A stretch of DNA of 32,000 nucleotides from Candidatus Saccharimonadota bacterium (GCA_027925225.1 AP027131.1:300001-332000), one strand, 5' to 3'; shown: positions 4,771-32,000, counted from the first letter of the stretch. Numbers and translations: made by a program. Notes: a model not told the origin generated them from the sequence alone.

Positions 4771-4778
4771 TGAAAATT

Positions 4779-12247: not shown

Positions 12248-13847
12248 TTTGCTTAATGTATTTTCTTAAATCTCCAAATTTTATTCTTTCCTGCTTTTTA
12301 TTGTCTCAATGTCTAATTGTAAAGGTTTTATCATCTTTATATTGTTTATCTATCGTAATAACAAAAGGTGTACCAATTGCATCTTGTCTAAAATATCTTT
12401 TCCCAATGCTTCCACTTGTTTGAAAAATTATTGCACCAAAATCTCTTTTTGCTATCTTATTAAATATTGCTTTTGCATCTTTTTCTTCATTTTTTGTAAG
12501 TGGACATATTGCAATTTTATATGGAGCAAGAGAAAAAGGAAAATAAATTTTGTTTTTATCTTTATTATAATTCTCTATTAAAATTGCAAAAAGTAAACGT
12601 TCAACCCCCATAGATGTTTCAATAATATTTGGAATTATTCTTTTATTTTCTTCGGTACAATGAAAATTTGTTTTTGAAAAATGTTCATGATTTTTTAAAT
12701 CAAAATCGCCTCGATCTGCAATTCCTAAAATTTCTCCAAAACCAAAAGGGAAATTATAATTTATATCAACCGTTTTTTTTGAATAATGTGCAAGATCAGA
12801 TTTTTTTACATTTTCATATTTAAGATTTTCTTCATTTAATTTAAGTTCTTTTGTTAAAAAAAGCTTTACTTTTTTTAGTGTTTTATTGAATTCTTTTGTA
12901 TTTGTTTTTGGTAAAATAAATGATTCCAGCTCTAATTGCTCAAACTCTCTTGTTTTAAAGATAAAATTCCCAGGAGTTACTTCATTTCTAAAAGATTTAC
13001 CAATTTGGCCAATTGAAAAAGGAAGTTTTAAATGTAAAGTGTCTTTTAAGTTTTTAAAATTTATAAATATTCCTTGTGCTGTCTCTGGTCTTAAATAAAG
13101 TTCTTTATTTCTTTCTGTTTTTGAATTAATTATTTTAAACATTAAGTTAAATATTTTTATTTCACTTCATCTAGTTTCAGATTTATATTTTATTTTTTCC
13201 ATAGCTTCAGACTCAATTTGAAATATTTCTTCTGCGCTTATATTAAATATTTGGCTAATTTCTTCTGAAGAATATTTTTTACCAATTTTATTAGAATTTT
13301 CTTCAATTCCGTTTATAAGTCTTATAATAGATTCTTCTCTTTTATTTAAATATTTTGGTAAAAATTCATTTATTTTAGAAATAATTTTTTTATTTTTATC
13401 ATTTTCTTTATTTGAAGTGTTTTTATTTTTTTCTAAAAAATCATAAATAAATGATTCTGGTAATTTTATTTCTTTTTTTATTAGTTCTTCTATTTCTTTT
13501 AAAGAGAGATCGCTTATATTTTTTTTTAGATATTCTTTTAATAATTTTTCAACATTATATCTAACATTATCATTTAAGCGTTCAATCATATAATCATTAA
13601 ATTTATTTAAATGTCCAGAAGCCTCTCATACTTTATTATTCAATATAATAGATGAATCAAATAAAAATGATTTTTCATTATTGATTACAAAATAATTTTT
13701 TCAAAGAGATTTTAAATTATCTTTAAGCAATGTTCCAATTGGTCCATAGTCGAAAGAATTAGCAAGTCCACCATAAATTTCTGAACTTGGATAAATAAAT
13801 CCATTTTCTTTTAAATGAGAAATTAATAATTGTATTTCTTTTTGCAT
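12237..13847 (-). CDS. glyQS: Glycyl-tRNA synthetase (class II, alpha2 type), 536 aa, with a sigma-derived insert
   Basis: The N-terminus was translated from 13847: MQKEIQLLISHLKENGFIYPSSEIYGGLANSFDYGPIG...VWEASGHLNKFNDYMIE. The core is FNLMFK...YLRPETAQGIFINFKN...GQIGKSFRNEVTPGNFIFKTREFEQLE...GSIGKRYFRQDAIGTPF. Track ORFs 13167-13589 and 12306-13142 are in the same frame. The TGA at 12306 is read through to TAA 12237-12239, overlapping the dnaG start by 11 nt. Confidence 0.9.
13194..13459 (-). repeat. ~265-bp segment homologous to rpoD 9205-9468 (sigma regions 3.2-4.2), embedded in frame inside glyS
   Basis: Direct nucleotide alignment shows long identical runs, for example tcttttatttaaatattttggtaaaa and ttcatttattttagaaataattt. 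The peptide is [22 protein letters not shown]...EEISQIFNISAEEIFQIESEAMEKIK, against Rpo[23 protein letters not shown]...[26 protein letters not shown]. Confidence 0.85.
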
Positions 13848-13897
13848 ATCTACTTTATTTTAATACTTAAGAAGATTAAAATGAATAATAATGTTTT

Positions 13898-16312
13898 TTA
13901 ATTTAATTTATAATTATTTATCCTAAAATTTAAAAATTTTTTTCTTTCATTATTTAAAACATTGTCATAAATTAAATCTATTTTTTTATTTTTTACAAGC
14001 TCATCAAATTCTTCTTGTAATAATGAAATATTTATTATATCTCCATTTTCATTAATAGCTATTTTGCCTTTATCTCATAGAGAGTGAACATTGCAATCTA
14101 ATAATAAGTAATTATTATTAGAAAAAAAATAATTTAAATTTTCATCTAAATATTTTTCATCAGTGTTCATTAAAATTTTTAAAAATTCTTTATTTTCAAT
14201 AATATGAGCTCTTTCAAAATTAGAAAAACTATTAACAAAATCTTTTGTATATTTTTTATTTTTTCTATCATTCTCTATTATTTTTGATCATATATATCTT
14301 AAATCAGTTTTATTAATTTTTTCTTTTTCTGTTTTTATTTTTTTAATAATTTTTTCTTTTTCATTAAAAATGAATTTATCAGGTACTATTAATAAATCTA
14401 AAAATTTGTTATTTTTAAAAATTTCATAATTTTGTGATGCAAATGCATTTTTTATTTCTCTTCATTCTTTCTCTTCTTTTTTATTGATTTTATATTTTTT
14501 TTTAATTTTCATTTTATTTTCTTTTAATAAACATAAAATATTTTCCTCTTTTATGTCATTTATTAAATTTGTATTAAAAATATTATTATTATTTTTATTT
14601 TTTGAATTTGAAATTAATGAAAAAAATTTAAATTCATAATTATTATTTATTCCATCTTGTTCATAAATTTTTTGTAATTCCTTAATTTCAATGCTATTCA
14701 AAATTAATCTTATTGGATCACTGTTTGGATTTGATAATCCGCCAGAAGAATGTGATCCAGTTATAAATGCATCAACATCTTTTATTGTCAATTTAAAATC
14801 AATAATATTTTTATTTAACTCCTCTATATTTCCCTTAAATTTAACTTCTTCTTTTTTCATATTTTTATTATTTGTTTTATCAAAGTTTTTATTTCTATAT
14901 TTTAATAATTTTAAATATTTTGGTTTTTTTAAAAAAAAATGTTCACCATATCTATTAGAAGAAGAACCTATTATTTGTTTTTCATCATTTAAAAGCATAG
15001 TATTAAAAACCAAACTGTGATCACTTTTTTTAAATATCATTATTCCTTTACCTGAATAAAAATATTTTGATTTTTCTTTGCTTTTTAAATTAACAATAAT
15101 TTTAAAATATTCTTCCTTTTTCATTTTATTTTCCCTTTTATTTTTGAAAGCACATCTAAAAATTTCTTCTAACACTGGTACAACAATTGAATTTCCGGCT
15201 TGTTTTCTTAAAAAATTTTCTGAAATTAAATTTTCATTGTTTATTTTATCAAAATCTTGTTTTTTAAATCCCATTATTTTTCATAATTCAGAAGCACTTA
15301 AAATTCTTATTACATTTAATTTTTTATCAAAAATTTTTATTCTATTTAATGCGCCAGTTGCAGTTATTGTTGGAGATATAGATTTGCTGGCATTAAAAAC
15401 CATATTCTCAGATTGAAAATTTGAATAATTTTTTAAAATTATTTTTTGTATTCCGTTAAAATGATTTTTAAAAGAATTTTCATCTATTTTTTCATTTATT
15501 TTAATTTCTTTTTTATAATTATTAGTATCTTTTTTATCAAAAAAATTGCTAATTCTTAATTTTGTTAAATTAATTTCTTTTGGAAAAATAAATTTATTTT
15601 GTTCAAATTCAGAAAACATAAAAGCTCTTTCTCTATTTTGAGGTATATTAAAATATTTGGCATTTAATGTAAACTTATGATTAACATATCCTAATTTTTC
15701 TAAAAATAATTCTCATTTTTTAAAATTTTTTTTATTTTTTTCAGAGAATATTGCTTTTACATTTTCCATCAATAAAAATTTAGGTAATTTATTTAATTTA
15801 TTTAATTCATCTAAAATTCTTTTAACTTCTCATAATAGAGAAGAACTACTCCCATAAACTAATCCTTTTTGCAATCCTTGTAAAGATAAATCTTGACAAG
15901 GAAAAGAATAAGTCATTAAATCATGTTTGGGAATATTTTCTCCTTTTAAATCTTTTATACTTCCAATATTATTTGTTATATTTAATGATTTTTCTAATAG
16001 TCATAAAAATTTTATTGATAATGATCTTAAATTGGTATATTTGTTTTTTCCATCTTTTGATAAATTATAATTTTCAAGTTTTTTTAATATTTCTTTTTTT
16101 AATATTTCCTTTTCTGTATTTGAAGCTGAATTTAAAATTTTGTCAATTTTTTTTCTTTCATTTTTAATTATTATATTTTCATGAACAAACGCATAAGAAA
16201 TAACAGAATAAATATCTCAATCACAACATAAAACAACTTCAAATTTTAATCCTATATTTTTAAATGCTTTAGCTTGTGCTCCAATACCAGAGAATAATTC
16301 AACTATTTTCAT
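13898..16312 (-). CDS. C5-cytosine DNA methyltransferase fused in one ORF to a C-terminal HNH-type nuclease domain (804 aa)
   Basis: I translated the whole ORF 16312 to 13898 and found only TGA inside. MTase motifs: I ELFSGIGA, IV SFPCQDLS, VI ENV, VIII QNRER, X QAGNSIVVPV. There is no stop after motif X. An unassigned region of about 210 aa follows, then ERAHIIENKEF...NNNYLLLDCNVHSLWDKGKIAINENG, which fits the AHI...N..L....H..fD.G.i pattern of HNH_2-type restriction nucleases. Confidence 0.8.
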
Positions 16313-16645: not shown

Positions 16646-17000
16646 ATGACTATTCAATAATTTTTTTAATAATTTTCTGATATTATATCTAACATTATCA
16701 TTTAAATGCTCAATTATATAATCATTAAATTTATTTAAATATTCCAAAGTATCTCATAATTTATATATTTAATATAATATATAAATCAAATAAAAATTAT
16801 TTTTTCATCATTTATTACAAAATTATTTTTTTTAAATAAATTTTAAATTATTTTTAAGTATTATTATTATTTTACAATAGTAAAAAGAATTAGTTATATC
16901 ACTACAAATTTTTGAATTTTGATAAATAAATTCACTTTTTTTAAATAAGAAATTAATAATTTTATTTCTTTTTACATATCTATTTTATTTTAATGTTTGA
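16646..17000 (-). pseudogene. Decayed copy (relic 2) of the glyS 5' end and its upstream region
   Basis: Aligns by eye to 13540-13870, with shared strings such as atatctaacattatcatttaa..caat.atataatcattaaatttatttaaat and gaaattaataatt.tatttcttttt.catatcta. The ATG is retained at 16975-16977, but codon 2 is CAA>TAA and there are many further lesions. Confidence 0.75.
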
Positions 17001-17571: not shown

Positions 17572-17725
17572 AAATTAAAAAGATTTTTAGACAAAAAAAT
17601 ATATTAAAAATATAAATATAATTCCTTTTAGAGATATAAAAAATAGGAAAATAAATAAATAAAAATTTATACATCATATTTAATAGTTGCTCTAACACCA
17701 TTAATTGTTAAAATTAATATATCTA

Positions 17726-19532
17726 ATGAAAAAAGAAAATATCAGAAACTTTTCAATTATTGCTCATATTGATCATGGTAAATCTACGCTTGCAGATCGT
17801 ATATTAGAATATACTGGTTCTATTTCAAAAAGAGAAATGAAGGCACAAATCTTAGATACTATGGATCTTGAGAGAGAACGTGGTATTACTATAAAATTAA
17901 ATGCTGTTCAAATTTCTTATAAATATAATAATGAAGAATATATTTTAAATTTAATTGATACTCCTGGACATGTTGATTTTACATATGAAGTATCCCGCTC
18001 ATTAGCTGCAAGCGATGGAGTATTACTCTTAGTAGATGCAACACAAGGCGTTCAACCACAAACAATAGCAAATATGTATCTTGCGCTTGAAAATAATCTT
18101 GTTATCTTACCTGTAATTAATAAAATTGATTCTGAATTAGCAGATATTAAAAAAGCAGAAAAAGAAATAAAAGAAATTTTAGGTCTTGAAATAAATGACA
18201 TAGTCTATATTTCTGCTAAAACTGGGAAAAATATTGACAAAGTATTAAAGCTTATAATTGAAAAAATTCCTGCTCCTCAAGATGCAGATGACAAAAAACC
18301 TCTTAAAGCACTTGTATTTGATTCTTATTTTGATTCTTTTAGAGGAATTATTGTATTTATAAGATTATTGCAAGGAAGAATAAAAAAAGGAGATAAATTA
18401 AAATTTTTACAAAATAAGCATCAATTTGAAGTTATTTCAGTAGGTGTAAATACACCTTTTGAAACAGAAAAAGATCATCTTGAAGCAGGGGAAACGGGCT
18501 GAATAGTAACTAATGAAAAAGATATTCATTCTTTTCATGTGGGAGATACTTTAACTTATGAAAATGAAAATAGTATAACTCCTATACAAGGATATAAATC
18601 ATCAAAACCTATGGTTTTTTCTGGTTTTTATCCAATAGATACAAATAAATATTTACTATTAGAAGAAGCATTGGGAAAAATTTCTCTTTCAGATTCTTCA
18701 CTTACTTATGAAAAAGAAAGTTCTAAAGCATTAGGATTTGGCTTCAGAATTGGCTTTTTAGGATTATTGCATCTTGAAATTATTCAAGAAAGAATTGAAA
18801 GAGAATTTAAAATAGATATTATTTCTACTGCACCTTCTGTTATTTATAATGTTTATTTAAAAGATAAAAAAGAACCATTAGTAATTAGAAATCCTTCAGA
18901 TTTTCCTGATAAAGTAAATATAAATTATGTAAAAGAACCTTATGTTAAACTATCTCTTTTTTCCCCACAAGTTTATGTGGGGAAATTAATGGAATATATT
19001 CATAGAAAAAGAGGTAATTATATTGATTTAGAGATATTTTCTGAAAAAATGAATGCTTTAATTTATGAAATTCCACTTGCTGAAATTGTATTTGGTTTTT
19101 TTGATTCTATTAAATCTATATCAAAAGGTTATGCTTCTTTTGATTATCAAGAAATAGGATATAAAAAATCAAATTTAGCAAAACTTTGAAGTTTTAATAG
19201 CAGGAGAAAAAATAGATGCTCTTTCTTTAATTGTAGAAAAAGATAATGCTTATTATATTGGAAGAGATCTTACTCAAAAATTAAAAGAAACACTTGTAAG
19301 ACAGAATTTTGAGGTTGCAATTCAAGCAAGCTTAAATGGAAAAATTATTGCAAGAGAAACATTAAAAGCATATAGAAAAGATGTAACTGGTTATCTTTAT
19401 GGTGGAGATGTTTCAAGAAAGAAAAAGCTTTTAGAAAAACAGAAAAAAGGGAAAAATAAAATGAAGCAAATTGGTAAAATATCTATTCCTCAAGAAGCTT
19501 TTATTTCTATTTTAAAAAATAATAATAAATAA
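17726..19532 (+). pseudogene. lepA: lepA (EF4) copy 1, conserved motifs intact but frameshifted by one extra T at 19185-19187
   Basis: G-domain motifs [22 protein letters not shown] and NKID are present. The length is 1807 nt, one more than copy 2. Here the sequence is aaactttgaag, against aaacttgaag in copy 2. The original frame ends at TAA 19244-19246, and the last ~114 codons ([12 protein letters not shown]...[14 protein letters not shown]) lie in the +1 frame. Confidence 0.7.
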
Positions 19533-19566
19533 AAAAAATACACATTTAAAAATGTGTATTTTTTAA
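19533..19566. terminator. Bidirectional rho-independent terminator between convergent lepA-1 and the fibre-gene relic
   Basis: A perfect 11-bp palindromic stem (aatacacattt / aaatgtgtatt, 19537-19560) is flanked by an A-run on the left and a T-run on the right. Confidence 0.75.
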
Positions 19567-19584
19567 AATAGTATTATTTTATAT

Positions 19585-20343
19585 TTATGCTGTTCTTTTG
19601 AAAACTCTCATTCCTGTTCCAACTCCTAAATCATAAGCTTTATTTTTATCTTTGCTACCAGTTAATGAAGTTCATGCTGTTTGACAATTATCAGCACTTT
19701 CACTAGGAACTGTATTTCCTATTATTTTTGAATTTCCTCCTTGATCATATGTATTAAATTTATTTATACTATTACCAAATCCTGTTACTACATCTGCAGC
19801 AAAATTTGTTATTCTTGCTGATCATTGGTGATTATGAGAAATTATATTTCCATTATTTGAACTGCATCCAATTATAGCTTGCCCTTCTGATAATATTCCT
19901 AAACTTTCTCAAAATCCATATCTTGGTGGCATTAGAGAAATAATAATTGATCCAATTGGTAATTTTAAATTTTCCATTTGATTTTTTAATTCTAAAATTT
20001 CATTTTGATTATTAATAATTTGATTTAATGATTGATTTATACCTTCTGTTGGATTCATAGTACTATCATCTGCCAATTCTGAAGATAAAGAAATTCCTTC
20101 TTCAAATTCTGGTCATTGATTAATTGTTTCTCCATTTAAAGTAAGTTGAGGATAGTTATATATACCATTTTCTATTTCAATTAAATCTGCACTATTTTGA
20201 TTAACAATTTTATTTGTTTCATTTAAATTTGCTTGATCTGCTTTTAATGAAATATCTCCTGTATTTTTATCAATTTGTGTTTTTCAAGGATTTATTCCAA
20301 AAGTTGGATTTGAAGTACTATTATTTGCTAATTTTAAAGTCTT
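19585..20343 (-). pseudogene. 5'-truncated fibre-family paralog (A'), 252 codons: one GINPW repeat, coiled coil and C-terminal domain
   Basis: The frame is open from 20343 to TAA 19585-19587 and is preceded by an in-frame TAA at 20344-20346. There is no plausible start or N-terminal part. It abuts glyS relic 3. The sequence is collinear with the 3' third of gene 25768-27813. Confidence 0.7.
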
Positions 20344-20354
20344 TTATTAATAAT

Positions 20355-20760
20355 GTGAAAATGATTATTCAATTATTTTTTAATAATTTTTTAACATTAT
20401 ATCTAATATTTAAATATCCAGAAGCCTCTCATACTTTATTATTTAATATAATAGATGAATCAAATAAAAATGATTTTTCATTATTGATTACAAAATAATT
20501 TTTTCAAAGAGATTTTAAATTATCTTTAAGAAACGGTTCAGTTAGACCATAGTAAAAAAAAAAAATTAGTAAGACCACCATAAATTTCTTAGCTTGAATA
20601 AATAAATTCATTTTTATTTTAAATAAAAAAATAATAATTGTATTTCTTTTTGAATATCTGCTTTATTTTAATAATCAAGAAAATTAAAATGAATAACAAT
20701 TTTTTTTAATTTAAATATAATTTTTTTTCATTATTTAAAGAATTATTATAAATAATGAAA
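20355..20760 (-). pseudogene. Decayed copy (relic 3) of the glyS 5' end, followed by a ~60-bp relic of the 3' end of the C5-MTase/HNH gene
   Basis: Long stretches are identical to 13600-13760, for example ccagaagcctctcatactttattatt.aatataatagatgaatcaaataaaaatgatttttcattattgattacaaaataattttttcaaagagattttaaattatctttaag. The start codon is destroyed (cat>aat at 20653-20655) and there is a ~42-bp deletion. The match continues through attaaaatgaataa.aat...ttttttc..cattatttaaa (13880-13960). Confidence 0.8.
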
Positions 20761-20763
20761 TAT

Positions 20764-23247
20764 TTACTTATTTAATAATTCATAATTTTGTTTAATATTT
20801 TCATAAAATGTTTTCATTTCTTTACTTCAAATTTTTAATTTTTCTTTATTTTTAGGTATTGGAATTAAAAAATCATAAAAATTTATAGAAATAGTAGGTA
20901 TTGTACCTTGAATAAAAATTGCACTTCTAACTTGTTCTTTAAATATCTTTGAAGTTGCAAATATTTTGCTTAATGAATAATTATCTAAATTTAAAACATT
21001 TCTTTTATTTACTTTTATTATATATAAATGAGATTGTATAACTGATTTAATGTCATTTTTATCTAAAATAGCAAATTGACCAACTCTACTTTTTCCATCT
21101 TTTACAAAAATAATATCTCCTTCTTCTAACTTTTGTTTATTTTTAAATTTTGATTCAAAATATTCTTTTGTAATATATCATTGTTTATTTAAATTTATTT
21201 TATAATCTTGAATATCAGAAGTTCTTATAAAAGGAATATAATCTTTTTCATTTAATTCTTCCTCAATATCATCCAAACTAAAATAACCACTACTTTCTGG
21301 CCCATTGCCAACAGGTATTAATTTTTTTTTGTTAGAATATAACACATCAATTTCAATTAATTCTTTAATTGTATAAAAATCATATATATTCTTAAATTCT
21401 TTTTTCATTTTATTTTGATAACTTCTATATTTTATATAAAAGTTTGTGTATAAAGAAAGATTATTTTCATTATATATGTCTAACATTTTAATTTTAAAAA
21501 TTTGTGAATTTTCTTTTTTATTTTTAAAGTCTTGGTATAAATTTTCAAAATCACTTTTTATTATTTTCTCTTTTTTTTCATTTTGTAATATATTTTGCAT
21601 CAAATCTTTTTCATATTTAATTTTCCCATTTTTATCATGACCCACCTCAAATACATTAAAAAGAAAAACATTTTTATTAGAAAACTTAGAAATTATTTCT
21701 TCTTTTGTTAAATTATTTTCAAATTTTCTTAAAATAAGAACTGATGTCTTAATACCTGTATGAGGTTTAAATGTTTCGGTTGGTAAGTTTATTATTTTTT
21801 CTACATAACATTTAGAAAGAATAAATTGTCTAAGTGAAAGTAATGTTGGATTTCCAAATATTCCTTCAGGTAAAATTATTGCTAATTGTCCACCTACTTT
21901 TAAAAAATTAATACATTGTTCAATAAAAAGGTATTCTGGATTAACTGCTTTTTCAATTTTGCCATTTTTCTTTGCTACTTCATAATTTTTCAAAATTTCA
22001 TAATCTTCTACTTGAATTTTTTTTCCAAAAGGAGGATTTGTAATAATTAAATCAAAATCTTTTTTAATAGTTTTTTTACTAACTTTTTCACTTGATAAAG
22101 AATCAACATCAAAAATATTAGTAACACCATCACCCATGATAGACATATATGCTTTTGATATTTTTGCAACTGTTTTATTTAAATCAAAACCATAAATATT
22201 TTTACTAGCTATTTTTTGTTTTAAATTTTCCTTTTCTTCTCTTGAAATTTTTTTTAATTCAATAATCTCTCAAATATTTTTTAAATACTCAACAATAAAA
22301 CCACCAGTACCACAAGCAGGATCTAATATTTTTTTGTTTTCATCAATATTTAAAAAATTAAGAATAAATTTTACTACATTTCTAGGGGTAAAAAATTGAC
22401 CATGATCTCCTTTAAGGGTTTTAGAAATAATAGTTTCAAATGCATCTGTAATAACATCACTGGAAGAAGTCATAAAACTAACTTTTTGAAGATTTTCAAT
22501 TATATAACTAATTATTTCTTCGCTAAATTCAATTGTTTCATCTTCTTCAAAATTATCAGCATAACTTTTTTTGACATTATTAAATATTTTAATTAATTGA
22601 TTCTTATTGGGTTCTGAATCATTTATATTACTTTCTTTTCAAACAAATTCTAAATTATCTTCATCTTCCTTATATCTTTCATCATAAATTTTGCAAAAAA
22701 GCACTCTAATTAAGTTATCTACAATCATTCCATCACTTTCCGCGGTGCTTGCTTTTATATAAGAATGAATTTCTTGAAAAGTTTTTTTTAAATTTTCAAA
22801 AGACTTTAAATCTTTTTTTTTAAAATTATCTATAACATTATTAAAATTAGGAATATTATTTATACTAATATAATTCAAAGAATCAGTTTTTTTATCTACA
22901 ACTTTTTTTAAAAATATTTTTTTCACCCCATTAAATAAAACACCATAATGAGCATCGCAAAGTCCCAAATATTTTTTTAATTGATTTATACCATCTTTTC
23001 TGTTATTTCTTTTACATTCAACAATAATATGTAAATTATTATTTTTATCAAAAACAGCAATATCAATCAGATATTTTTCTAAACTTCCAGGAGATTTTGG
23101 AATTCTATATTGTGGATGAGTAGTAATATTATTCTTGGGATATCCGTAAATTTTAAAAAGTTCTTCTGAAAAGGGTTGAATTGATTCTACTTCTTCGGGA
23201 GTGGCATTAATTTTCTTTGTTGTTATATAATCTGTTATTTGTTTCAT
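20764..23247 (-). CDS. Single-chain type IIG-like restriction-modification enzyme: N-terminal PD-(D/E)xK nuclease, gamma-class N6-adenine MTase and one HsdS-like target-recognition domain (827 aa)
   Basis: Fragments 22639-23247, 22270-22473 and 21178-22146 plus the tail to TAA 20764-20766 are in one frame, and I translated the gaps. Nuclease motif: LIDIAVFD...HIIVECK. MTase motifs: GQFFTPRNVV, DPACGTGGF (I), NPPFG (IV). The C-terminus (LEEGDIIFVKDGKSRVGQFAIL...IPIPKNKEKLKI) resembles an HsdS half-subunit. Confidence 0.8.
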
Positions 23248-23805: not shown

Positions 23806-23910
23806 TCTCAAACATGAATTCACTAATTATTAAAAAAAGCAAATAAAAAATTTAAACATTATGTTTTAATAAATATTTAATAATTAATATTATTAAAATT
23901 AATATATCTA

Positions 23911-25716
23911 ATGAAAAAAGAAAATATAAGAAATTTTTCAATTATTGCTCATATAGACCATGGGAAATCTACACTTTCAGATCGAATATTAGAATATACT
24001 GGTTCTATTTCAAAAAAAGAAATGAAGTCGCAAATCTTAGATAATATGGATCTTGAAAGAGAACTAGGAATTACTATAAAATTAAATGCTGTGCAAATTT
24101 CTTATAAATATAATAATGAAGAATATATTTTAAATTTAATTGATACTTCTGGACATTTTGATTTTACATATGAAGTATTTCGTTCATTGGCTGCAAGTGA
24201 TGGAGTATTGCTTTTAATTGATGCAACACAAGGTGTTCAACCAAAAACAATAGCAAATATGTATCTTGCACTTGAAAATAATCTTGTTATCTTACCTGTA
24301 ATTAATAAAATTGATTCTGAATTAGCAAATATTAAAAAATCAGAAAAAGAAATAAAAGAAATTTTAGGTCTTGAAATAAATGACATAGTCTATATTTCTG
24401 CTAAAACTGGGAAAAATATTGACCAAGTATTAAAGCTTATAATTGAAAAAATTCCTGCTCCTCAAGATGCAGATGACAAAAAACCTCTTAAAGCACTTGT
24501 ATTTGATTCTTATTTTGATTCTTTTAGAGGAATTATTGTATTTATAAGATTATTGCAAGGAAGAATAAAAAAAGGAGATAAATTAAAATTTTTACAAAAT
24601 AAGCATCAATTTGAAGTTATTTCAGTAGGTGTAAATACACCTTTTGAAAAAGAAAAAGATCATCTTGAAGCAGGAGAAACAGGCTGAATAGTAACTAATG
24701 AAAAAGATATTCATTCTTTTCATGTGGGAGATACCTTAACTTATGAAAATGAAAATAATATAACTCCTATACAAGGATATAAATCATCAAAACCTATGGT
24801 TTTTTCTGGTTTTTATCCAATAGATACAAATAAATATTTACTATTAGAAGAAGCATTGGGAAAAATTTCTCTTTCAGATTCTTCACTTACTTATGAAAAA
24901 GAAAGTTCTAAAGCATTAGGATTTGGCTTCAGAATTGGCTTTTTAGGATTATTGCATCTTGAAATTATTCAAGAAAGAATTGAAAGAGAATTTAAAATAG
25001 ATATTATTTCTACTGCTCCTTCTGTTATTTATAATGTTTATTTAAAAGATAAAAAAGAACCATTAATAATTAGAAATCCTTCAGATTTTCCTGATAAAGT
25101 AAATATAAATTATGTAAAAGAACCTTATGTTAAACTATCTCTTTTTTCCCCACAAGTTTATGTAGGGAAATTAATGGAATATATTCATAGAAAAAGAGGC
25201 AATTATATTGATTTAGAGATATTTTCTGAAAAAATGAATGCTTTAATTTATGAAATTCCACTTGCTGAAATTGTATTTGGTTTTTTTGATTCTATTAAAT
25301 CTATATCAAAAGGTTATGCTTCTTTTGATTATCAATAAATAGGATATAAAAAATCAAATTTAGCAAAACTTGAAGTTTTAATAGCAGGAGAAAAAATAGA
25401 TGCTCTTTCTTTAATTGTAGAAAAAGATAATGCTTATTATATTGGAAGAGATCTTACTCAAAAATTAAAAGAAACACTTGTAAGACAGAATTTTGAGGTT
25501 GCAATTCAAGCAAGTTTGAATGGAAAAATTATTGCAAGAGAAACATTAAAAGCATATAGAAAAGATGTAACTGGTTATCTTTATGGTGGAGATGTTTCAA
25601 GAAAGAAAAAACTTTTAGAAAAACAGAAAAAAGGGAAAAAGAAAATGAAGCAAATTGGTAAAATATCTATTCCTCAAGAAGCTTTTATTTCTATTTTAAA
25701 AAATAATAATAAATAA
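23911..25716 (+). pseudogene. lepA: lepA (EF4) copy 2, with an in-frame TAA at 25336-25338 and substitutions at invariant GTPase residues
   Basis: All 1806 nt are in one frame. GAA>TAA relative to copy 1 (FDYQ*IGYKK). Substitutions: RGITI>[13 protein letters not shown]>[12 protein letters not shown]>QPKT. The 3' two-thirds are almost identical to copy 1. Confidence 0.75.
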
Positions 25717-25749
25717 AAAAATACACATTTAAAAATGTGTATTTTTTAA
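25717..25749. terminator. Second copy of the bidirectional terminator (atacacattt aaaa atgtgtat + T-run)
   Basis: The same palindrome as at 19537-19560, located between lepA-2 and the convergent fibre gene. Confidence 0.75.
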
Positions 25750-25767
25750 AATATTATTATTTTATAT

Positions 25768-27813
25768 TTATGCTGTTCTTCTAAAAATTCTCATTCCTGT
25801 TCCAATTCCTAAACCATAAGCTTTATTTTTGCTTTCTGCTCCAGTTAATGAAGTTCACCCTGTTTGAGTTGAATCATTATTATCAAGAAGAACTTTAGAT
25901 CCTATTGATTTTGCATTTCCTGTTTGATCATATGTATTAAATCTATTAATACTATTACCTATACCAATTACTAAACCTGCAGTAAAACTTGTTACTCCTG
26001 CTGATCATTGGTGATTGTGAGAAATTATACTTCCGTTACTTGAACTACCGCCAATTATAGCTTGCCCATCTTCTAGTGTTCCTAGAACCGTTCAAACTCC
26101 ATAACTTGGTGGAAGTACAGAAATAATAATTGTTCCAATTGGTGATTTTAAATCTTCCATTTTATTTTCTAAATCTAATATTTTATTTTGATTATTAATA
26201 ATTTGATTTAATAATGAATTTATACCTAAATTTGGATTTGTATTACTGTCATCTGTTATCATTGAAGATAAAGAAATCCCTGCTTCAGATCACTTCGTAA
26301 TTTCTTCCCCGTTTAGAGTAATCTTTGGATAATTATATGCTCCCTGTTCTATTATTGAAATATCTGTTGTATTTTTATCAATTTCAAATAGCATAGGATT
26401 TATACCTAAACTTGGATTTATATTACTATCATTTGTTAATTCTGAAGATTTTGAAATTCCTTCATCTGGTCATTTTGTAATTTCTTCCCCATTTAAAGTA
26501 AGTTTTGAATAATTATATGTTCCACTTTCTATTTTATCTAAATCAACTTGATTCGCTTTTAATAAAATATTTGAAGCATTTTTATCAATTTGAGTTTTTC
26601 AAGGATTTATTCCAAATGTTGGGTTTGAAGTACTATCATCTTCTGTTGAAGAAGATACAGAATTTGTTAAAATTGTTCCATCTATTATTTTTGATATATC
26701 TTCTGTATTTTCATCAATTTGAGTTTTTCAAGGATTTATTCCTTGTGTTGGATTTGTGACACTATCATCTGTTAATTCTGAAGATTTTGAAATTCCTTCT
26801 TCAAATTCTGGTCATTGATTTATTGTTTTTCCATTTAAAGTAAGTTGAGGATAATTATATGCTCCCTGTTCTATTATTGAAATATCTGTTGTATTTTTAT
26901 CAATTTCAAATAGCATAGGATTTATACCTAAACTTGGATTTATATTACTATCATTTGTTAATTCTGAAGATACTGTAGCACCACTCTCAGGTCACTCTGT
27001 AATTGTTTCATCATTTAAAGTAATTTTTGAAAATTCATATTTCCCACTTCTCATTCCAAAAATATCATTTTTATTTGAATCAATTTGAGTTTTTCAAGGA
27101 TTTATTCCTTGTGTTGGATTTGTGACACTATCATCTGTTAATTCTGAAGATAGTGTAGCACCACCTTCGGGTCACTCTATAATTGTTTCATTATTTAAAG
27201 TAATTCTTGAAAAATTATATTCCCCACTTCCCATTCTAAAAATATTATCTTTATTTGAATCAATTTGAGTTTTTCAAGGATTAATTCCTACAATGGGTTT
27301 TTCAGTACTATCATCTTCTAATTCTGAAGTTTTTGAAATTCCTTCACTTGAAATATCAGATCATTTTGTAATTGTTTCTCCATTTAAATTAATTGCTAAA
27401 AAGTTAGTTTTTCCAGTTTGTAATGAAACAAAATCATTTCTAAGAATATCAATACTTCTTTTTCAAGGATTTATACCAGAATTTATATTAGTTTTACTAT
27501 CATCTGTTAACTCTGAAGTTAAAGAAACCCCTTCAGAAGGTCACTCTGTAATTGTTTCTCCATTTAGAATTAGTTTGGGAAAATTGGCATTTCCTTCTGC
27601 AACTGTTTCTAAACCATTAAAAATTTGATCAATTGCATATTTTCAAGAATTTATTCCCTCAAGTGGTTTTAAATTACTATCATTTTGAATTTCACTTGAT
27701 AGAATTTCCTCTGTAGCTTTTAAAGATTTTAATTCTCTTTTTAAATTATTTTTATTAAAAATATTGTTTGATTTTAATATAGGTTTATTATTTATTTTTT
27801 TATTATTTTCCAT
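25768..27813 (-). CDS. Fibre-family protein B (681 aa): short N-terminus, 8 GINPW repeats, coiled coil and a tail-collar-like C-terminal domain
   Basis: ATG 27813 is preceded by GAGGTGAAATAA. The 2046 nt are in frame to TAA 25768-25770. I verified the 5' 70 codons by coordinate and read the rest by eye. TGA occurs twice per repeat (INPW, E/K-W-P), which explains why no ORF appears in the track. The C-terminus is LKSPIGTIIISVLPPSYGVWTVLGTLEDGQAIIGGSSSNGSIISHNHQWSAG...AYGLGIGTGMRIFRRTA. Confidence 0.8.
26225..27690 (-). repeat. Coding tandem repeats of 129-190 bp (43-63 aa units, each ending ...SELTDDS....NP..GINPW)
   Basis: The tttttcaagga landmark (the INPWK codons on the opposite strand) recurs near 26598, 26727, 27090, 27271, 27460 and 27640. 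INPM variants lie near 26395 and 26917. An exact 121-bp duplicate sits at 26328-26448 and 26850-26970. Confidence 0.85.
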
Positions 27814-27950
27814 TTATTTCACCTCATTTAAATAATACATTTTAAATTTTTAAAAAAAAGAATTACAATTTTTTTAATAATTTTAAATTGTTTTTTATTT
27901 TATTAAAAATTTTTAATTTAATAACTATTTTAAAAAATATTAATTAAAAT

Positions 27951-29354
27951 CTATTTTTCTCTTCTAAAAATTCTCATTCCTGTTCCGATTCCTAAACCGT
28001 AAGCTTTATTTTTGTTTTCTGATCCAGTTAATGAAGTTCATCCTGTTTGAGTTTTATCATTATTATCAATAAGAACATTAGAACCTATAGATTTTGAATT
28101 TCCTGTTTGGTCATATGTATTAAATTTGTTAATACTATTACCAATTCCAATTACTAAACCTGCAGTAAAAGTTGTTACTCCTGCTGATCATTGATGATTG
28201 TGAGAAATTATACTTCCATCACTTGAATTACCACCAATTATAGTTTGCCCGTCTTCTAATGTCCCTAGAACCGATCAAACTCCATAATTTGGCGGAAGTA
28301 CAGAAATAATAATTGATCCAATTGGTGATTTTAAATCTTCCAGTTGATTTTTTAATTCTAAAATTTCATTTTTATTTGAATCAATTTGAGTTTTTCAAGG
28401 ATTTATTCCTTGTGTTGGATTTGTTACACTATTATCTGTTAACTCTGAAGTTAAAGAAACCCCTTCACTTGAAATATCAGATCATTTTGTAATTGTTTCT
28501 CCATTTAAATTAATTGCTAAAAAGTTAGTTTTTGCAGTTTGTAATGAAACAAAATCATTTCTGAGAATATCAATACTTCTTTTTCAAGGATTTATACCAG
28601 AATTTATATTAGTTTTACTATCATCTGTTAACTCTGATGTTAAAGAAACCCCTTCAGAAGGTCACTCTGTAATTGTTTCTCCATTTAAATTTATTCCTGT
28701 AAAAGGAATTTCGCCAAATGCCAACTCATTAACACTAGATATAATTAAATCAATATTACCTTTTCAAGGATTTATTCCATAATCTGGATTTTTACCACTA
28801 TCATCTGTTATTAATGAAGAATAGATATCTTCTTCAGCATTTATTGATGATTCTATTTTTTTATTTAAAACATTTTCTAAAGAAAATTTAATTTCATAAT
28901 TAATACTATTTAAAATTAATCTTCCTTTTTTTTCTTTTATAGAACAATCAAAATAAATAATATCTCCTTTTTTAACTTCTAAATCAGTTAAAAGTAAAAC
29001 ATTATTATTAATTCTTTTTTCTATAGGATATTCTATTGTTTTTTTTAATCTATTATTTAGATAAAGATTAAATTCTAAAGTTTTTTTAGATATGTCACTT
29101 AAAATAGATTTTACATAAAATTTAAATGTAAATTTACCACATTTAAGTGCATTAAATTTATTTGGATTAATTTGTTCTTTAACAAAATTTTCATTTAAAG
29201 AATTTATTTTAATTAAATTTGGTCTTATTTTTTCGCTATTTATAACTTCTAATGATGGAGAGTGATATTTTCCCATCATCAAATCTTTTTTATTACAAAT
29301 GTTGTTTGATTTTAATTTAGATTCATTCTTTGTTTGTTTAACAATTATTTTCAT
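27951..29354 (-). CDS. Fibre-family protein C (467 aa): ~170-aa N-terminal domain, 2 GINPW repeats, coiled coil and C-terminal domain
   Basis: Track ORF 28764-29354 is in frame (813 nt) with TAG 27951-27953 through TGA codons. The ATG is preceded by the same GAGGTGAAATAA as gene B. The C-terminus is SPIGSIIISVLPPNYGVWSVLGTLEDGQTIIGGNSSDGSIISHNHQWSAG...AYGLGIGTGMRIFRREK. Confidence 0.8.
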
Positions 29355-29586
29355 TTATTTCACCTCAAACAAATAGTAATGCTTAAATTAAATATATTTA
29401 CATAATTTTTAAAAAATATATTTATTTTATTTTTAAAAAATAAATATATAAAATATGCATCTTTTATTTGTTTTTTAATTATTTTTTTATATTTTTAAAT
29501 AAGTAAAAATTTAAAACCATTACTTATTTTTTAAGAATTTTATAATTTTCCTGAATTAGTAATAAATTTTTACTTTTAAATTAATT

Positions 29587-30606
29587 TTAATCTACTCTTT
29601 TAAAAACATGAATATCAGATCCAAGTCCAAAACCATAAGCATAATTATTTTCAGAACCAAATAAACTTGTATAAGATATTTGGTTTACTATTGTTCCTTC
29701 GTTTTTTCCTAATCAAAATTGATTTCCTTTTAAATCATAAGTATTAAAACCTGAAAAAGCAATATTATCTTGTTCATTTGAATTTCCGATTATTGCGTAT
29801 TGACTTATTCATTGATGATTGTGTTTAATAATTGATCCTTTTGATGTTTTTCCTCCTATAATAGTTTGCCCATCAGCTAAAACCCCTCAGTCTTCTCAGA
29901 TTCCATAATTGGGTTTTGTTTTTCCTAAAATAACAGAACCAATTGAAAATTCAGTTTCAGTTATTTTTGATTTAAGATTTAATATTTTCTTTTTTAAATC
30001 TAAAATTTGATTTTGATTATTCTCGACTCTACTTAATAAGTATTTTATTTCATTATTTTCTTTTATATTATCATTTCTTTTTTTTGAAGAAGTTTCAAAA
30101 ATATTTTTTTCAAAAAATTTAATTTCATAATTAATAATATTTCTTAAATTTAAACTTCCTTTTCCTTTTCTTAAAAAATATTCAAAGTAAATATTTTCTT
30201 CTTTTTTGATTTCTAAATTAGAAATAATAGTAATATCACCTTTAAAGTTTGCTTCTATTATTTTTTCTGTTGTTTCTGCTAATTTTCCATTAACATAAAT
30301 ATTAAAATCTAAGGTTTTTTTAAATTCATCATTTAAAACATTTTTTAAAGAAATTTTAAAAAATAATTTCCCAAATTCAAGAATTTCAAATTTATTTGGA
30401 TTAAGTTTTGTTTTAATGTATTTTTCATCAAAATTAATTATTTTAACTAATTTTGGTCTTATTTTTGTATTTTCTAGAAGTCCTAAAGGTAAAGAAATAT
30501 ATTTTCCTGTTATTAATTTTTCTTTATTGGATATACATTTTTCATTACATTTTTTTTTAGATTCTAAAATAGGTTTATCATTTATTTGTTTTTTAATAAT
30601 TTTCAT
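29587..30606 (-). CDS. Fibre-family protein D (339 aa): N-terminal domain, coiled coil and a divergent C-terminal domain, no repeats
   Basis: Track ORF 29896-30606 continues through TGA (I-W-EDW-GVLADGQTIIGGKTSKGSIIKHNHQW...) to TAA 29587-29589, in frame (309 nt). GAAAGGA lies upstream of the ATG. Confidence 0.8.
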
Positions 30607-30661
30607 GATTTTCCTTTCATCAATATTTATTTATTAAAGATAAATAACTTTTAATTATTTT

Positions 30662-31678
30662 TTAACTAATTCTTTTATAAACATATATGTTATATCCAAT
30701 TCCCAATCCATAACCGATGTTATATTCAGATCCAACTAAATTTGTATAAGCTAATTTATTTACTAAAGTACCATTGTTAGATCCTATTACAAATGATTTA
30801 CCATTTTGAAATGTATTAAAACTTGCAAGAGCAGTATTATCATTCTCTAGATTTTCAATAGTTGTATATTTATTAGATCATATGTGATTATGATTAATAA
30901 TATTTCCTCTGCTTGTTACTTTTTCTATTTCACAAATAATTCCTTTTCCTTCATATAATGCTCCCAAATCTTCTCAAACACCATAAGGGGGTTTATTTAA
31001 TCCGCTAATAATAATAGTGCCTATTGGCAATTCCAGATTATCTGCTTTTAATTGAAGTTTTGATAATCTTTTTTTTAAGTTTAAAATTTTGTTTTCATTA
31101 TCAATAATTTGATTTAATAAAATATTTTTTTTGTTATTTTTTATATCATAATTATCATTATTTTCATTTTTTAAAAAATCTTCAAAAAATTTGATTCTAT
31201 AATGAATAGAATTACTTAAATTTAAATTACCCTTTTTTTCTTTTAATGAATAATTAAAATAAATAAAATCTCCTTTTTTAACATTTAAATCAGCAGAAAG
31301 AATAATATTTTTATTAAAATTTTCTTTTATTGGATATTCTACTGTTTTTTCTAGTTTATTGTTTACATAAATATTAAATTCTAGGGTTTTTTTAATTTCA
31401 TCATTTAAAACAGATTTTAAATAAATTTTAAATAAAATTTTACCACATTTAATAATATTAAACTTATTTGGAGAGAGTTGCTCTTTAATATAATTTTCAT
31501 TAAAAGAAATTATTTTTAATAAATTTGGTCTTATTTTTATATTATTTGAAATTTTTAAAGATGAAGAAGTGTATTTGCCTATTATTATTTTTTTCTCATT
31601 GGATACAAATTTTTCATCACCCCTTTTTTTTGATTTTAAAATATATTCATTGTTTATTTTTTCTTTAACAATTTTCAT
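30662..31678 (-). CDS. Fibre-family protein E (338 aa): N-terminal domain, coiled coil and a divergent C-terminal domain, no repeats
   Basis: Track ORF 30974-31678 continues through TGA (LPIGTIIISGLNKPPYGVWEDLGALYEGKGII...GNIINHNHIW...) to TAA 30662-30664, in frame (312 nt). A strong GGAGG lies 5 nt upstream of the ATG. Confidence 0.8.
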
Positions 31679-31745
31679 AATTTCCTCCTAAATAAACATT
31701 AAAATCTAATATGTAAAATACAAAACACTTAACAATAAGAATTTT

Positions 31746-32000
31746 TTATGATTCTCTTCTGAAAATTTTTGGAGATGTTCCAATACCAACACCATAAATT
31801 TTGTTGTATATATTATTTTCAATTAATTTTATATTATCAGTCTCAGATGATACAGTTATTTCTGATCCATCTTTTTTACCTAGTCAAAATTGATTTCCAT
31901 TAATATCATAAGTATTAAAACCTGAAAAAGCACTAATTTGCTTATCTAAACTTCCAATGGTTGTATATTCAGTAGTTCATATATGATTATGTTTAATAAT
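31746..32000 (-). CDS. Fibre-family protein F, C-terminal 84 codons only (the gene runs off the window)
   Basis: Translation is IIKHNHIWTTEYTTIGS...FSGFNTYDINGNQFWLGKKDG...IYGVGIGTSPKIFRRES*, with TAA at 31746-31748. It is closest to protein D. Confidence 0.75.

What the first reader, a model, noticed from the sequence alone, without database searches (positions are those of the whole stretch)
25768..32000. Array of paralogous fibre-like proteins with a shared collar-like C-terminal domain and no secretion signal
Five minus-strand genes in a row (B, C, D, E, F), plus relic A' at 19585-20343, share a coiled coil ending in (L/S)PIG(S/T)IIIS..PP.YG.W..LG....GQ.IIG....G.IISHNHQW ... FNTYD..GN ... 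AYG.G.G...F.R. The PIGxII...W...G(Q) start and the HNH-type histidine pair resemble the phage tail-collar / MdpB-type domain that caps trimeric fibres. I regard this as a resemblance, not a demonstrated homology. Genes C, D and E add a conserved ~170-aa N-terminal domain (MKI.K...IRPxLxKI...PNKF...FKxxLKxxLxDxxKKTLxFNxYxN...KKGxxIYF...YxIKF), which B lacks. None has a signal peptide, lipobox or TM helix, which is odd for surface or adhesin proteins of a wall-less bacterium. It fits virion, tailocin or other self-assembling fibre proteins better. No other phage genes are visible in the window. I cannot place the N-terminal domain or the GINPW repeat in any family I know. The array continues beyond 32000.
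Basis: partly seen in the sequence, partly recalled or inferred. Interest (0 to 1): 0.8.

Follow-up and report, generated by a model that had tools for sequence, protein, structure and literature searches.

The report
Phage tail-fibre gene array in Hepatoplasma
A tiny gut-symbiont genome (Candidatus Hepatoplasma vulgare) carries a row of five intact genes, plus one relic, that are copies of tail-fibre (host-recognition) proteins of previously unknown mycoplasma-type phages; their tip domain is a distant cousin of the phage T4 baseplate protein gp10.

Summary
B–F and relic A′ are paralogues with a short coiled coil followed by a conserved ~125-aa C-terminal domain (CTD). C, D and E also have a ~130-aa N-terminal module. 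B and C have 60-aa "GINPW" repeats. None has a signal peptide or TM helix.

The family matches nothing in Pfam, PHROGs, NCBIfam, PADLOC, PDB sequences, 50,697 deposited phage genomes, IMG/VR, GTDB genomes or JGI metagenomes. An exhaustive profile search of 1.84 billion proteins found 52 members. All ten outside contigs inspected use code 4 (19–33% GC). Most are phage genomes or fragments, with the member in the late fibre position. One (L003) is instead a similar gene array.

All three modules of the window proteins recur in those phage fibres. The CTD aligns end to end with T4 Gp10_C (hhalign 79–87% probability), and fold searches rank T4 gp10 first, though weakly. It is not a Pfam Collar member.

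No other phage gene lies in window 1–25.7 kb, and sequence beyond 32 kb could not be obtained. So prophage module, domesticated genes and remnant all remain open.

Verdict: a new variant of a known kind, of moderate interest.

The parts
25768..27813 (-). Gene B (HPAVJP_2990, 681 aa): short leader, about eight 60-aa shaft repeats, coiled coil, Gp10_C-like tip domain
   Evidence: Code-4 ORF; identical to P0002; repeats; GAGGTG Shine-Dalgarno upstream
26179..27636 (-). 60-aa 'NF..ITLNGETITEWP...SSELTDDS.TNP..GINPWKTQID' repeats of B (nine GIN[PS] motifs)
   Evidence: The same unit occurs in phage fibres: L001 824-aa, L004 P0014, up to 60% identity
25771..26142 (-). C-terminal tip domain (CTD) of B (aa 558-681)
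   Evidence: Alignments A1 and A5; profile hit
27951..29354 (-). Gene C (HPAVJP_3000, 467 aa): leader, beta-rich N-module, three shaft repeats, coiled coil, CTD
28875..29255 (-). N-terminal module of C (aa 34-160), homologous to an internal module of phage fibres
   Evidence: HMM built from C/D/E hits P0009 (1e-26), P0014, P0004, P0012, P0017 (1e-10 to 1e-13) and the L001 824-aa fibre (8e-7)
27954..28325 (-). CTD of C (aa 344-467); first sequence of the structure model
29587..30606 (-). Gene D (HPAVJP_3010, 339 aa): leader, N-module (30100-30489), coiled coil, CTD (29590-29946)
   Evidence: Aligns over ~340 aa with phage fibre P0009 (E=2e-54). AAGGA Shine-Dalgarno
30662..31678 (-). Gene E (HPAVJP_3020, 338 aa, = P0010): leader, N-module (31169-31564), coiled coil, CTD (30665-31027)
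   Evidence: AGGAGG Shine-Dalgarno
31746..32000 (-). Gene F (HPAVJP_3030; 84 aa visible of 175): leader, coiled coil, CTD only; 5' end outside the window
19585..20343 (-). Relic A' (HPAVJP_2930, annotated 163 aa): truncated copy of the 3' part of B with an intact CTD and traces of repeats upstream
   Evidence: dN/dS against B and C is about 0.9-1.0
17648..20104 (.). Copy 1 of a 2.46-kb segmental duplication (lepA plus the 3' end of a fibre gene). Its partner is 23832-26287, at 93.4% identity
   Evidence: Self-blastn; indel map
23832..26287 (.). Copy 2 of the segmental duplication (lepA plus the 3' end of B)

Best explanation
The array is a chromosomal cluster of tail-fibre (receptor-binding protein) genes that originated in phages of mollicutes.

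Each protein is modular. It has a ~17-aa leader shared by B-F; an optional beta-rich module (C, D, E); optional 60-aa shaft repeats (B, C); a short helix (modelled, read as a coiled coil) that would set a trimer; and a ~125-aa C-terminal tip.

The tip is a very divergent relative of the T4 gp10 C-terminal domain. It has conserved N- and C-terminal core strands, a nearly invariant HxH pair and a hypervariable middle.

Inferred mechanism: the proteins are made in the cytoplasm without any export signal, as phage fibres are. They trimerise through the coiled coil and the interdigitated tip, with the six His of three HxH pairs holding a metal ion on the three-fold axis as in other phage fibres. 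The variable loops of the tip then bind a membrane-surface receptor of the wall-less host. Several divergent paralogues would give several binding specificities.

What is shown: the homology, the module sharing, the phage context of the homologues, the intact ORFs and the ribosome-binding sites.

What is inferred: trimer formation, metal binding, receptor binding, and whom the proteins serve.

My split for their present role:
- about 0.45: still part of, or used by, a resident (possibly defective) prophage whose other genes would lie beyond 32.3 kb. This includes use as a recombination reservoir for host range.
- about 0.2: domesticated by the bacterium.
- about 0.35: slowly decaying remnants.
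For: Identity as a phage fibre family:
- An exhaustive profile search found 52 members, with the domain at the C-terminus of nearly all.
- L001: a 19.2-kb contig with a packaging terminase (phrog_2150, E=8.5e-18), methylases, a portal-sized gene, two fibres and small ORFs.
- L004 and L014 repeat the portal-sized gene, small gene and fibre(s) layout. L004 shares its portal-sized and adaptor-sized genes with L001 at 57-58% identity.
- L015: Terminase_3, a portal (phrog_533), the fibre, then a phage integrase.
- L005: DNA polymerase (phrog_1252, E=3e-132) and DUF669.
- L016: primase.
- N-terminal parts of members hit PHROG tail-fibre, tail-needle, tail and head-tail-adaptor families.
- All ten outside loci use TGA=Trp and have 19-33% GC.

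Module sharing with the window proteins: N-module, 60-aa repeat and CTD.

The Gp10_C link:
- hhalign of the 36-sequence CTD profile against a 7-sequence Gp10_C profile gives 87% probability (E=4e-6) locally and 79% (E=1.8e-6) globally over 119 colinear columns, ending at both C-termini.
- Control scores: real 39.6, column shuffles 11.6+/-2.2, 6-column block shuffles 22+/-3.8 (max 36).
- Against T4 proteins alone, the match falls at gp10 448-489, the start of PF21939.
- The top three PDB fold hits are all T4 gp10. The top BFVD hits are baseplate and Gp10_C-domain proteins.

Coding status:
- Each of B-E has a Shine-Dalgarno sequence.
- Fewer than 0.2% of neutral replicates stay open at 0.1 substitutions per site, whereas the paralogues differ by dS of 0.2-0.8.
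- H50 and H52 are at least 90% conserved, and the middle of the domain is hypervariable.
Against: - No phage structural, lysis or integration gene lies in window 1-25.7 kb. B ends 51 bp from a housekeeping gene, lepA, with none of the small ORFs that follow the fibre gene in the phage contigs.
- The window proteins lack the long N-terminal regions of the phage fibres and begin almost directly at the internal module. It is therefore unproven that they can attach to a virion.
- dN/dS is 0.5-1.35. That fits diversifying selection but equally fits relaxed constraint.
- The surrounding region tolerates junk: both lepA copies are disrupted, and there are glyS fragments.
- The Gp10_C relationship is below Pfam's detection, and the fold matches are weak (E=0.05-0.2, TM ~0.27). 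They come from a monomer model with mean pLDDT 74.
- The divergence among paralogues may have arisen in phage genomes before integration. If so, intact ORFs do not prove selection in the host.
Confidence: 0.8

Rival explanations
1. Anti-phage decoys. The chromosomal copies keep the coiled coil and tip needed for trimerisation but have lost the virion-attachment N-terminus. Made in the cytoplasm, they would form mixed trimers with the fibre subunits of an infecting phage, or sequester a partner needed for fibre assembly. The progeny would then carry defective fibres. In a related genome some copies are tethered to the membrane.
For: - N-terminally shortened relative to the phage fibres.
- No export signal.
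- Intact ORFs with ribosome-binding sites.
- The array sits between or next to two restriction-modification genes at 13898-16312 and 20764-23247, a defence-island-like setting.
- L003 (18.9% GC, code 4) holds a similar array in which two members have 2 or 4 N-terminal TM helices. By the positive-inside rule (my reading of the sequences) the tip domain would face the cytoplasm.
- Hepatoplasmataceae keep CRISPR-Cas9 and R-M systems, so phage pressure exists (PMC10928387).
Against: - No match to any of 5,027 PADLOC models.
- No experimental precedent was checked here.
- High dN/dS and a truncated relic fit decay equally well.
- The topology prediction in Lys-rich proteins is weak.
- Adjacency to R-M genes could be coincidental in a 662-kb genome.
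Confidence: 0.12
2. Bacterial adhesins. Phage fibres have been domesticated to attach the symbiont to the isopod midgut-gland epithelium, or to bind host molecules, and are released or exposed by an unconventional route.
For: - It is a paralogous, repeat-rich, fast-evolving family in a host-attached mollicute.
- Tandem repeat-rich ORF clusters are a noted feature of Hepatoplasmataceae genomes, but those are different, giant Ig-like proteins (PMC10928387).
- The TM-anchored members in L003 could be surface-displayed if their topology is the opposite of my prediction.
Against: - No signal peptide, lipobox or TM helix in any of the eight H. vulgare members.
- All relatives with informative context are in phage contigs.
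- No match to any known adhesin family.
Confidence: 0.06
3. Non-functional prophage debris. These would be the last surviving genes of one or more decayed prophages, duplicated by the same segmental duplications that scrambled the neighbourhood, and not yet interrupted.
For: - dN/dS of about 0.5-1.35, and about 1 for A'.
- A' is truncated.
- Both lepA copies and several glyS fragments in the same region are pseudogenes or fragments.
- No other phage genes within 25 kb.
- L003 contains degenerate members: P0043 and P0033 lack the HxH pair and the central region.
Against: - Five consecutive ORFs of 175-681 codons are all open in DNA where neutral change closes an ORF very quickly: 0-3% of replicates remain open at 0.05 substitutions per site.
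- All checked genes keep Shine-Dalgarno sequences.
- Core residues of the tip, including the HxH pair, are conserved across all copies.
Confidence: 0.3
4. Fibres of a tailocin or other phage-tail-like particle made by the bacterium.
For: The proteins are fibre-type and lack a signal peptide.
Against: - No sheath, tube, baseplate or spike gene in the window.
- The related phage contigs show small genomes of 18-19 kb with terminase and portal, so they are capsid-forming phages.
Confidence: 0.03

Closest known systems
T4 gp10 C-terminal domain family (Pfam PF21939, Gp10_C; structure 2fkk)
   Same: - It sits at the extreme C-terminus of a fibre or baseplate-pin protein.
- It opens with Y/L-P-I-G-T-I...(N)P..(Y/F)G.W...G.G..(I/L)(I/V)G and ends with ...(V/I)(Y/W).(W/K)R.(A/S) at the protein's last residues.
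- Some members (Streptococcus and Proteus phage fibres) carry HxH in the middle.
- The two families are colinear by hhalign at 79-87% probability.
- It gives the best fold hits.
   Different: - No hit to the Pfam model at E<=1.
- The central half of the domain is unalignable and shorter.
- HxH is nearly universal in this family but absent in T4 gp10 itself.
- All inspected members of this family come from code-4 (mollicute-type) sequences.
Phage tail collar domain (Pfam PF07484) / MdpB-type proteins and T4 gp12
   Same: The same opening P-(I/V)-G-x-I motif, at the start of the domain (gp12 337-348 against Collar 344-400). HxH metal-binding pairs in trimeric fibre tips are known for gp12 and gp37 (from memory, not tested here).
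   Different: No Pfam hit. hhalign probability is 1.4% over 12 columns. My Gp10_C profile is not detectably related to gp12 either.
Tandem receptor-binding-protein gene sets of multi-RBP phages (for example the four tailspikes of CBA120-like phages; from memory)
   Same: Several paralogous RBP genes in a row, with a shared short N-terminus and divergent distal parts.
   Different: Those sets lie inside a complete phage genome. Here the row abuts housekeeping genes, and no other phage gene is visible in 25 kb.
Mollicute variable surface protein and cassette families (Vsp/Vlp/Vsa lipoproteins, MgPa repeats; from memory)
   Same: Paralogue arrays with internal repeats, segmental duplication and truncated copies, in minimal genomes.
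   Different: Those are lipoproteins or membrane proteins with export signals. These proteins have none, and their relatives are phage fibres.

Membership tests
Pfam Collar (PF07484, phage tail collar domain) | Match to the family HMM at or near the gathering score | tested here: not met
   No hit at E<=1 for B-E or at E<=0.01 for 42 family members. The same library detects Collar in T4 gp12 at 7e-14.
Pfam Collar (PF07484, phage tail collar domain) | Profile alignment to the collar region of T4 gp12 | tested here: not met
   hhalign aligns only 12 columns (gp12 337-348), at 1.4% probability and E=0.035.
Pfam Gp10_C (PF21939, T4 gp10 C-terminal domain) | Match to the family HMM at or near the gathering score | tested here: not met
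   No hit. The same library finds PF21939 in T4 gp10 at 3e-56.
Pfam Gp10_C (PF21939, T4 gp10 C-terminal domain) | Colinear profile-profile similarity over the domain | tested here: met
   hhalign A5 vs A6: 87% probability and E=4e-6 locally (38 columns); 79% and E=1.8e-6 globally (119 columns to both C-termini). The real score of 39.6 compares with 11.6+/-2.2 for column shuffles and 22+/-3.8 (max 36) for block shuffles.
Pfam Gp10_C (PF21939, T4 gp10 C-terminal domain) | Same three-dimensional fold | tested here: inconclusive
Pfam Gp10_C (PF21939, T4 gp10 C-terminal domain) | Forms an interdigitated homotrimer at the tip of a fibre or pin | not testable with these tools
   No multimer prediction is available. 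A helix precedes the domain in both models.
Phage tail fibre / receptor-binding proteins (functional class) | Encoded in a phage genome within the late structural module | tested here: inconclusive
   Met for the homologues (L001, L004, L014, L015, L016). Not met for the window copies within the visible 32 kb. Sequence beyond 32 kb was unobtainable.
Phage tail fibre / receptor-binding proteins (functional class) | N-terminal region that anchors the fibre to the virion | tested here: inconclusive
   The window proteins lack the 150-650-aa N-terminal regions of the phage homologues and keep only a shared ~17-aa leader. Whether that leader anchors anything is unknown.
Mollicute surface lipoproteins / adhesins | Signal peptide with lipobox, or a TM anchor | tested here: not met
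   The maximum hydropathy is <=1.53, inside the tip domain, and there is no N-terminal hydrophobic segment. NCBIfam and Pfam give no adhesin hit.
Known anti-phage defence systems (PADLOC-DB) | Match to a defence-protein model | tested here: not met
   No hit for B-F, A', P0008 or P0033. Only the neighbouring 827-aa gene matches (R-M methyltransferases).

The most novel reading that the evidence does not exclude
The fibre genes have been domesticated by the symbiont. They would act as intracellular 'decoy' subunits, membrane-tethered in a related genome, that keep the trimerisation core of the phage fibre but lack its virion anchor. They would poison or sense the assembly of fibres of infecting phages. 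This would be a defence principle based on endogenised receptor-binding proteins, maintained as a diversifying array next to restriction-modification genes in a 662-kb genome.
Probability: 0.12. Interest if true: 0.8.

Novelty: new variant of a known kind. Interest (0 to 1): 0.5.

Why it matters
- Hepatoplasma genomes have been described as free of phage or mobile-element genes (PMC3942034). The H. vulgare genome paper reports only defence systems (PMC10928387). This array, together with the related code-4 phage contigs, is the first concrete trace of the phages that those CRISPR and R-M systems face.
- It defines a fibre-tip domain that no curated library recognises, and all inspected members come from code-4 (mollicute-type) sequences. 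Their phages must recognise a naked membrane rather than a cell wall. The domain is therefore a handle for finding mollicute phages in sequence data and for asking what their receptors are.
- Eight paralogues, roughly 1% of a 662-kb genome, is a large investment for a reduced genome. This raises the testable question of whether the genes have been co-opted.

Tried and rejected
Family libraries and databases that gave no family-level hit:
- Pfam, PHROGs, NCBIfam and PADLOC on the window proteins.
- Profile search of PDB sequences: best E=0.19, which is chance.
- tblastn of two divergent tip domains against 50,697 deposited phage genomes: nothing, apart from a chance E=0.5 hit.
- IMG/VR scans with two alignments, GTDB species genomes and JGI metagenomes: no relatives.

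Attempts to read the genome beyond 32 kb, all unsuccessful:
- Look-ups of D and F found no record.
- An exact 45-mer from the window's end was not in the genome collection.
- The supplements of the genome paper hold no locus tags.

Other dead ends:
- The first structure model, from 8 sequences, was too poor to use (pLDDT 52).
- The sample accessions of the phage contigs are not mentioned in any searchable paper, so the animal hosts are unknown.
- The promoter scan is uninformative in this AT-rich DNA (59 found against 54 expected).
- The three 'terminators' it found are just the repeated coding sequence read on the opposite strand.
- P0042, a profile hit, is a spurious low-complexity repeat protein and was excluded.
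- The idea that the shared N-terminal leader of B-F matches the N-termini of phage fibres was not convincing on inspection.

Full report
**1. What is in the sequence**

The window has about 20% GC.
- B, 25768-27813, 681 aa
- C, 27951-29354, 467 aa
- D, 29587-30606, 339 aa
- E, 30662-31678, 338 aa
- F, 31746 to beyond 32000

There is also a truncated copy, A', at 19585-20343.

A database search identifies the proteins as hypothetical proteins HPAVJP_2930 and 2990-3030 of Candidatus Hepatoplasma vulgare, a wall-less symbiont of the woodlouse midgut gland with a 662-kb genome. F is a complete 175-aa protein, so only about 270 nt of it lie outside the window.

C, D and E share a ~130-aa N-terminal module that B and F lack. 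B has nine, and C three, GIN[PS] motifs spaced about 60 aa apart. None has a hydrophobic segment outside the C-terminal domain, so there is no signal peptide, lipobox or TM helix.

**2. Neighbourhood**

The rest of the window is housekeeping: efp, kinases, a helicase, rpoD, dnaG and glyS. It also holds two restriction-modification-type genes, at 13898-16312 and 20764-23247.

A' belongs to a 2.46-kb segmental duplication (17648-20104 vs 23832-26287, 93% identity). That duplication copied lepA together with the 3' end of B.

A six-frame search of the whole window with 424 ORFs from the related phage contigs finds nothing outside the family, apart from a generic methyltransferase match. PHROGs finds no structural phage gene either.

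Each of B, C, D and E is preceded by a good Shine-Dalgarno sequence.

**3. Relatives**

Pfam, PHROGs, NCBIfam and PADLOC do not recognise any part of the proteins.

The word-indexed searches found, outside the genome, only three proteins from raw-read assemblies. Within the genome they also found two more paralogues at a distant locus, HPAVJP_5650 and 5660.

An exhaustive HMM search of 1.84 billion representatives, using the C-terminal domain (CTD), found 52 proteins, 39 of them below 1e-10. The domain lies at the C-terminus of nearly all, in proteins of 100-1155 aa. One hit, P0042, is spurious.

All 30 looked up are unnamed, essentially singleton clusters on contigs of at most 37 kb. H. vulgare is therefore the only chromosome-scale sequence seen to carry the family.

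The family is absent from 50,697 deposited phage genomes by tblastn. It is also absent from IMG/VR, GTDB species genomes and JGI metagenomes at the sensitivity of the pattern scans, and from PDB sequences.

**4. Context of the relatives**

All ten outside loci inspected use TGA as Trp and have 19-33% GC, so they are mollicute-type sequences. Most are phage:
- L001 (19.2-kb contig) has a packaging terminase (phrog_2150, E=8.5e-18), two DNA methylases, scaffold-, capsid- and portal-sized genes, then two fibre genes and small ORFs.
- L004 shares the portal-sized and next gene with L001 at 57-58% identity.
- L014 has the same layout.
- L015 (18.4-kb contig in an NCBI assembly) has Terminase_3, a portal (phrog_533), the family member, two small ORFs and a phage integrase.
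- L005 has a DNA polymerase (phrog_1252, E=3e-132) and DUF669.
- L016 has a primase.
- The N-terminal parts of various members hit PHROG tail-fibre, tail-needle, tail and head-tail-adaptor families.

One locus differs. L003 (18.9% GC) is a 5.4-kb piece with four or five family members in tandem, like the window. Two of them have N-terminal TM helices, and two have degenerate tips.

**5. The modules are phage-fibre modules**

An HMM of the C/D/E N-terminal domain finds an internal domain in the phage fibres:
- P0009, E=1e-26
- P0014, P0004, P0012 and P0017, E=1e-10 to 1e-13
- the 824-aa fibre of L001, E=8e-7

The 60-aa repeat of B and C occurs in the L001 and L004 fibres at up to 60% identity. 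D and E align over almost their whole length with the C-terminal 340 aa of P0009 (E=2e-54).

So the window proteins are shortened versions of phage fibres. They start, after a ~17-aa leader shared among B-F, at what is an internal module in the phage proteins.

**6. The tip domain**

A 36-sequence alignment shows three zones:
- a conserved opening (LPIGTIxIS...P.YGTW..LG.L..GQ.IIGG.SS.G....HxH)
- a hypervariable, indel-rich middle
- a conserved end (N.AYGLG.G....WKR..) at the last residues of the protein

Both His of the HxH pair are at least 90% conserved, and some members have two to four consecutive HxH pairs.

The AF2 model built from this alignment reaches pLDDT 74, with the opening and closing strands above 85.

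Foldseek ranks T4 gp10 first, second and third in the PDB (5iv5_AC, 2fkk, 2fl8). In BFVD it ranks baseplate, Gp10_C-domain and tail-collar proteins first. All of these hits are weak (E>=0.013, TM ~0.3), as expected when a monomer model of an intertwined trimer is compared.

hhalign of the profile against T4 proteins gives:
- gp10 448-489, E=0.0015
- gp11 177-198, E=3e-5
- gp12 337-348, not significant

Pfam places the start of Gp10_C (PF21939) and of Collar (PF07484) exactly at the gp10 and gp12 stretches.

Against a profile of seven diverse Gp10_C domains, the match rises to 87% probability (E=4e-6). In global mode it is 79% over 119 colinear columns, ending at both C-termini. Column-shuffled and block-shuffled templates score far lower.

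Gp10_C also terminates tail fibres of unrelated phages (Streptococcus, Proteus, FelixO1-like), and some of those carry HxH.

I conclude that the tip is a very divergent Gp10_C-like domain. It is not a member by Pfam's criterion, and it is not demonstrably a Collar domain.

**7. Are the genes alive?**

Nei-Gojobori dN/dS between paralogues is 0.5-1.35 and about 1 for A'. That means relaxed or diversifying evolution. The estimate is crude in DNA this AT-rich.

In this composition a neutral ORF is closed quickly. At 0.05 substitutions per site only 0-3% of simulated copies stay open, and at 0.1 fewer than 0.2% do. The paralogues differ by dS of 0.2-0.8. Frame maintenance has therefore been selected. 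Part of that history may have played out in phage genomes before integration.

**8. Interpretation**

Shown:
- This is a family of mollicute-phage tail-fibre (receptor-binding) proteins with a Gp10_C-like tip.
- Eight copies reside in the H. vulgare chromosome. Five are in a row and translatable, and there is no other phage gene in the 25 kb on one side.

Inferred, from established knowledge of phage fibres and not tested here:
- trimerisation through the coiled coil and tip
- a metal held by the HxH pairs on the three-fold axis, as in T4 gp12/gp37 and P2-type spikes
- receptor binding by the variable middle

Unresolved: whom they serve.
- A prophage body could lie beyond 32.3 kb, since the genes are transcribed towards lepA and upstream phage genes would therefore be beyond F. 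I could not obtain that sequence.
- Against an ordinary prophage module: the loss of the long N-terminal regions, the lack of the small ORFs that follow fibre genes in the phage contigs, a second two-gene locus elsewhere, and the L003-type arrays with derived members.
- The rivals are anti-phage decoys, adhesins and debris. They are scored in the rival list.

**9. Novelty and score**

Phage-derived fibre genes in a bacterial chromosome are ordinary. The following are less ordinary:
- The tip family is unknown to every curated library.
- All inspected members come from code-4 sequences.
- It gives the first trace of Hepatoplasma phages. The literature reports none (PMC3942034, PMC10928387).
- A 662-kb genome keeps eight copies.

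I rate it a new variant of a known kind, with interest 0.5.

Noticed in passing
window 17726-19540 and 23911-25716: lepA (EF4) is present twice, and both copies are disrupted. Copy 1 has a +1 frameshift (an extra T) at 19185. Copy 2 has an in-frame TAA at about 25339 (FDYQ*IGYKK). Either lepA is a pseudogene in this symbiont or the assembly has errors here.
   Followed up: partly
window 13193-13457 (inside glyS, 12237-13847) vs 9204-9467 (rpoD): The glycyl-tRNA synthetase ORF contains an in-frame ~265-nt segment that is 78% identical to the region-4 part of rpoD (…[19 protein letters not shown]…IESEAMEKIK). It looks like an rpoD fragment inserted into glyS.
   Followed up: no
window 20407-20744 and 16660-16994 vs 13532-13938: Two extra copies of the 5' end of glyS (83-87% identity) lie next to the two R-M genes. 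The whole 13-26 kb stretch is a patchwork of segmental duplications.
   Followed up: partly
window 13898-16312 and 20764-23247: Two large restriction-modification-type genes. One is a C5 DNA methyltransferase with a ~400-aa C-terminal extension (phrog_116, 3e-54). The other is an 827-aa type I/IIG-like N6 methyltransferase (PADLOC MTase_II, 6e-78). They bracket relic A' and lie just upstream of the array.
   Followed up: partly
L003:316-1125 and L003:2318-2995: In a related 18.9% GC, code-4 contig, two members of the family (P0033, P0008) have 4 and 2 N-terminal TM helices ahead of the coiled coil and tip. Charge distribution suggests the tip faces the cytoplasm. The neighbouring P0043 and P0033 have lost the HxH pair and the central part of the tip.
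   Followed up: partly
proteins P0023, P0024, P0031, P0035, P0039, P0047 (outside the window): Some family members carry two to four consecutive HxH pairs (for example SHNHALTMNSHNHSLTMNSHSHTQAGHRH) where the window proteins have one. This looks like an extended metal-binding needle.
   Followed up: no
window 8258-8638 (-): A 126-aa protein made almost entirely of tandem 'NIDNKF(L/I)' coiled-coil-like repeats. It hits only PHROGs of unknown function (E ~5e-6).
   Followed up: no
window 3332-4075, 4459-4770, 4770-5483: Three adjacent paralogous deoxynucleoside-kinase-like genes. The middle one is an N-terminally truncated fragment.
   Followed up: no
ENA contig of 13,642 bp carrying P0035, P0037 and P0039: Three family members sit on one contig, so multi-copy sets also occur outside Hepatoplasma.
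   Followed up: no
window 26729-26745, 27095-27111, 28396-28412 (+): Three identical 'terminator-like' hairpins (CAAGGATTTATTCCTTG). They are the antisense of the repeated GINPW coding unit, not terminators.
   Followed up: yes
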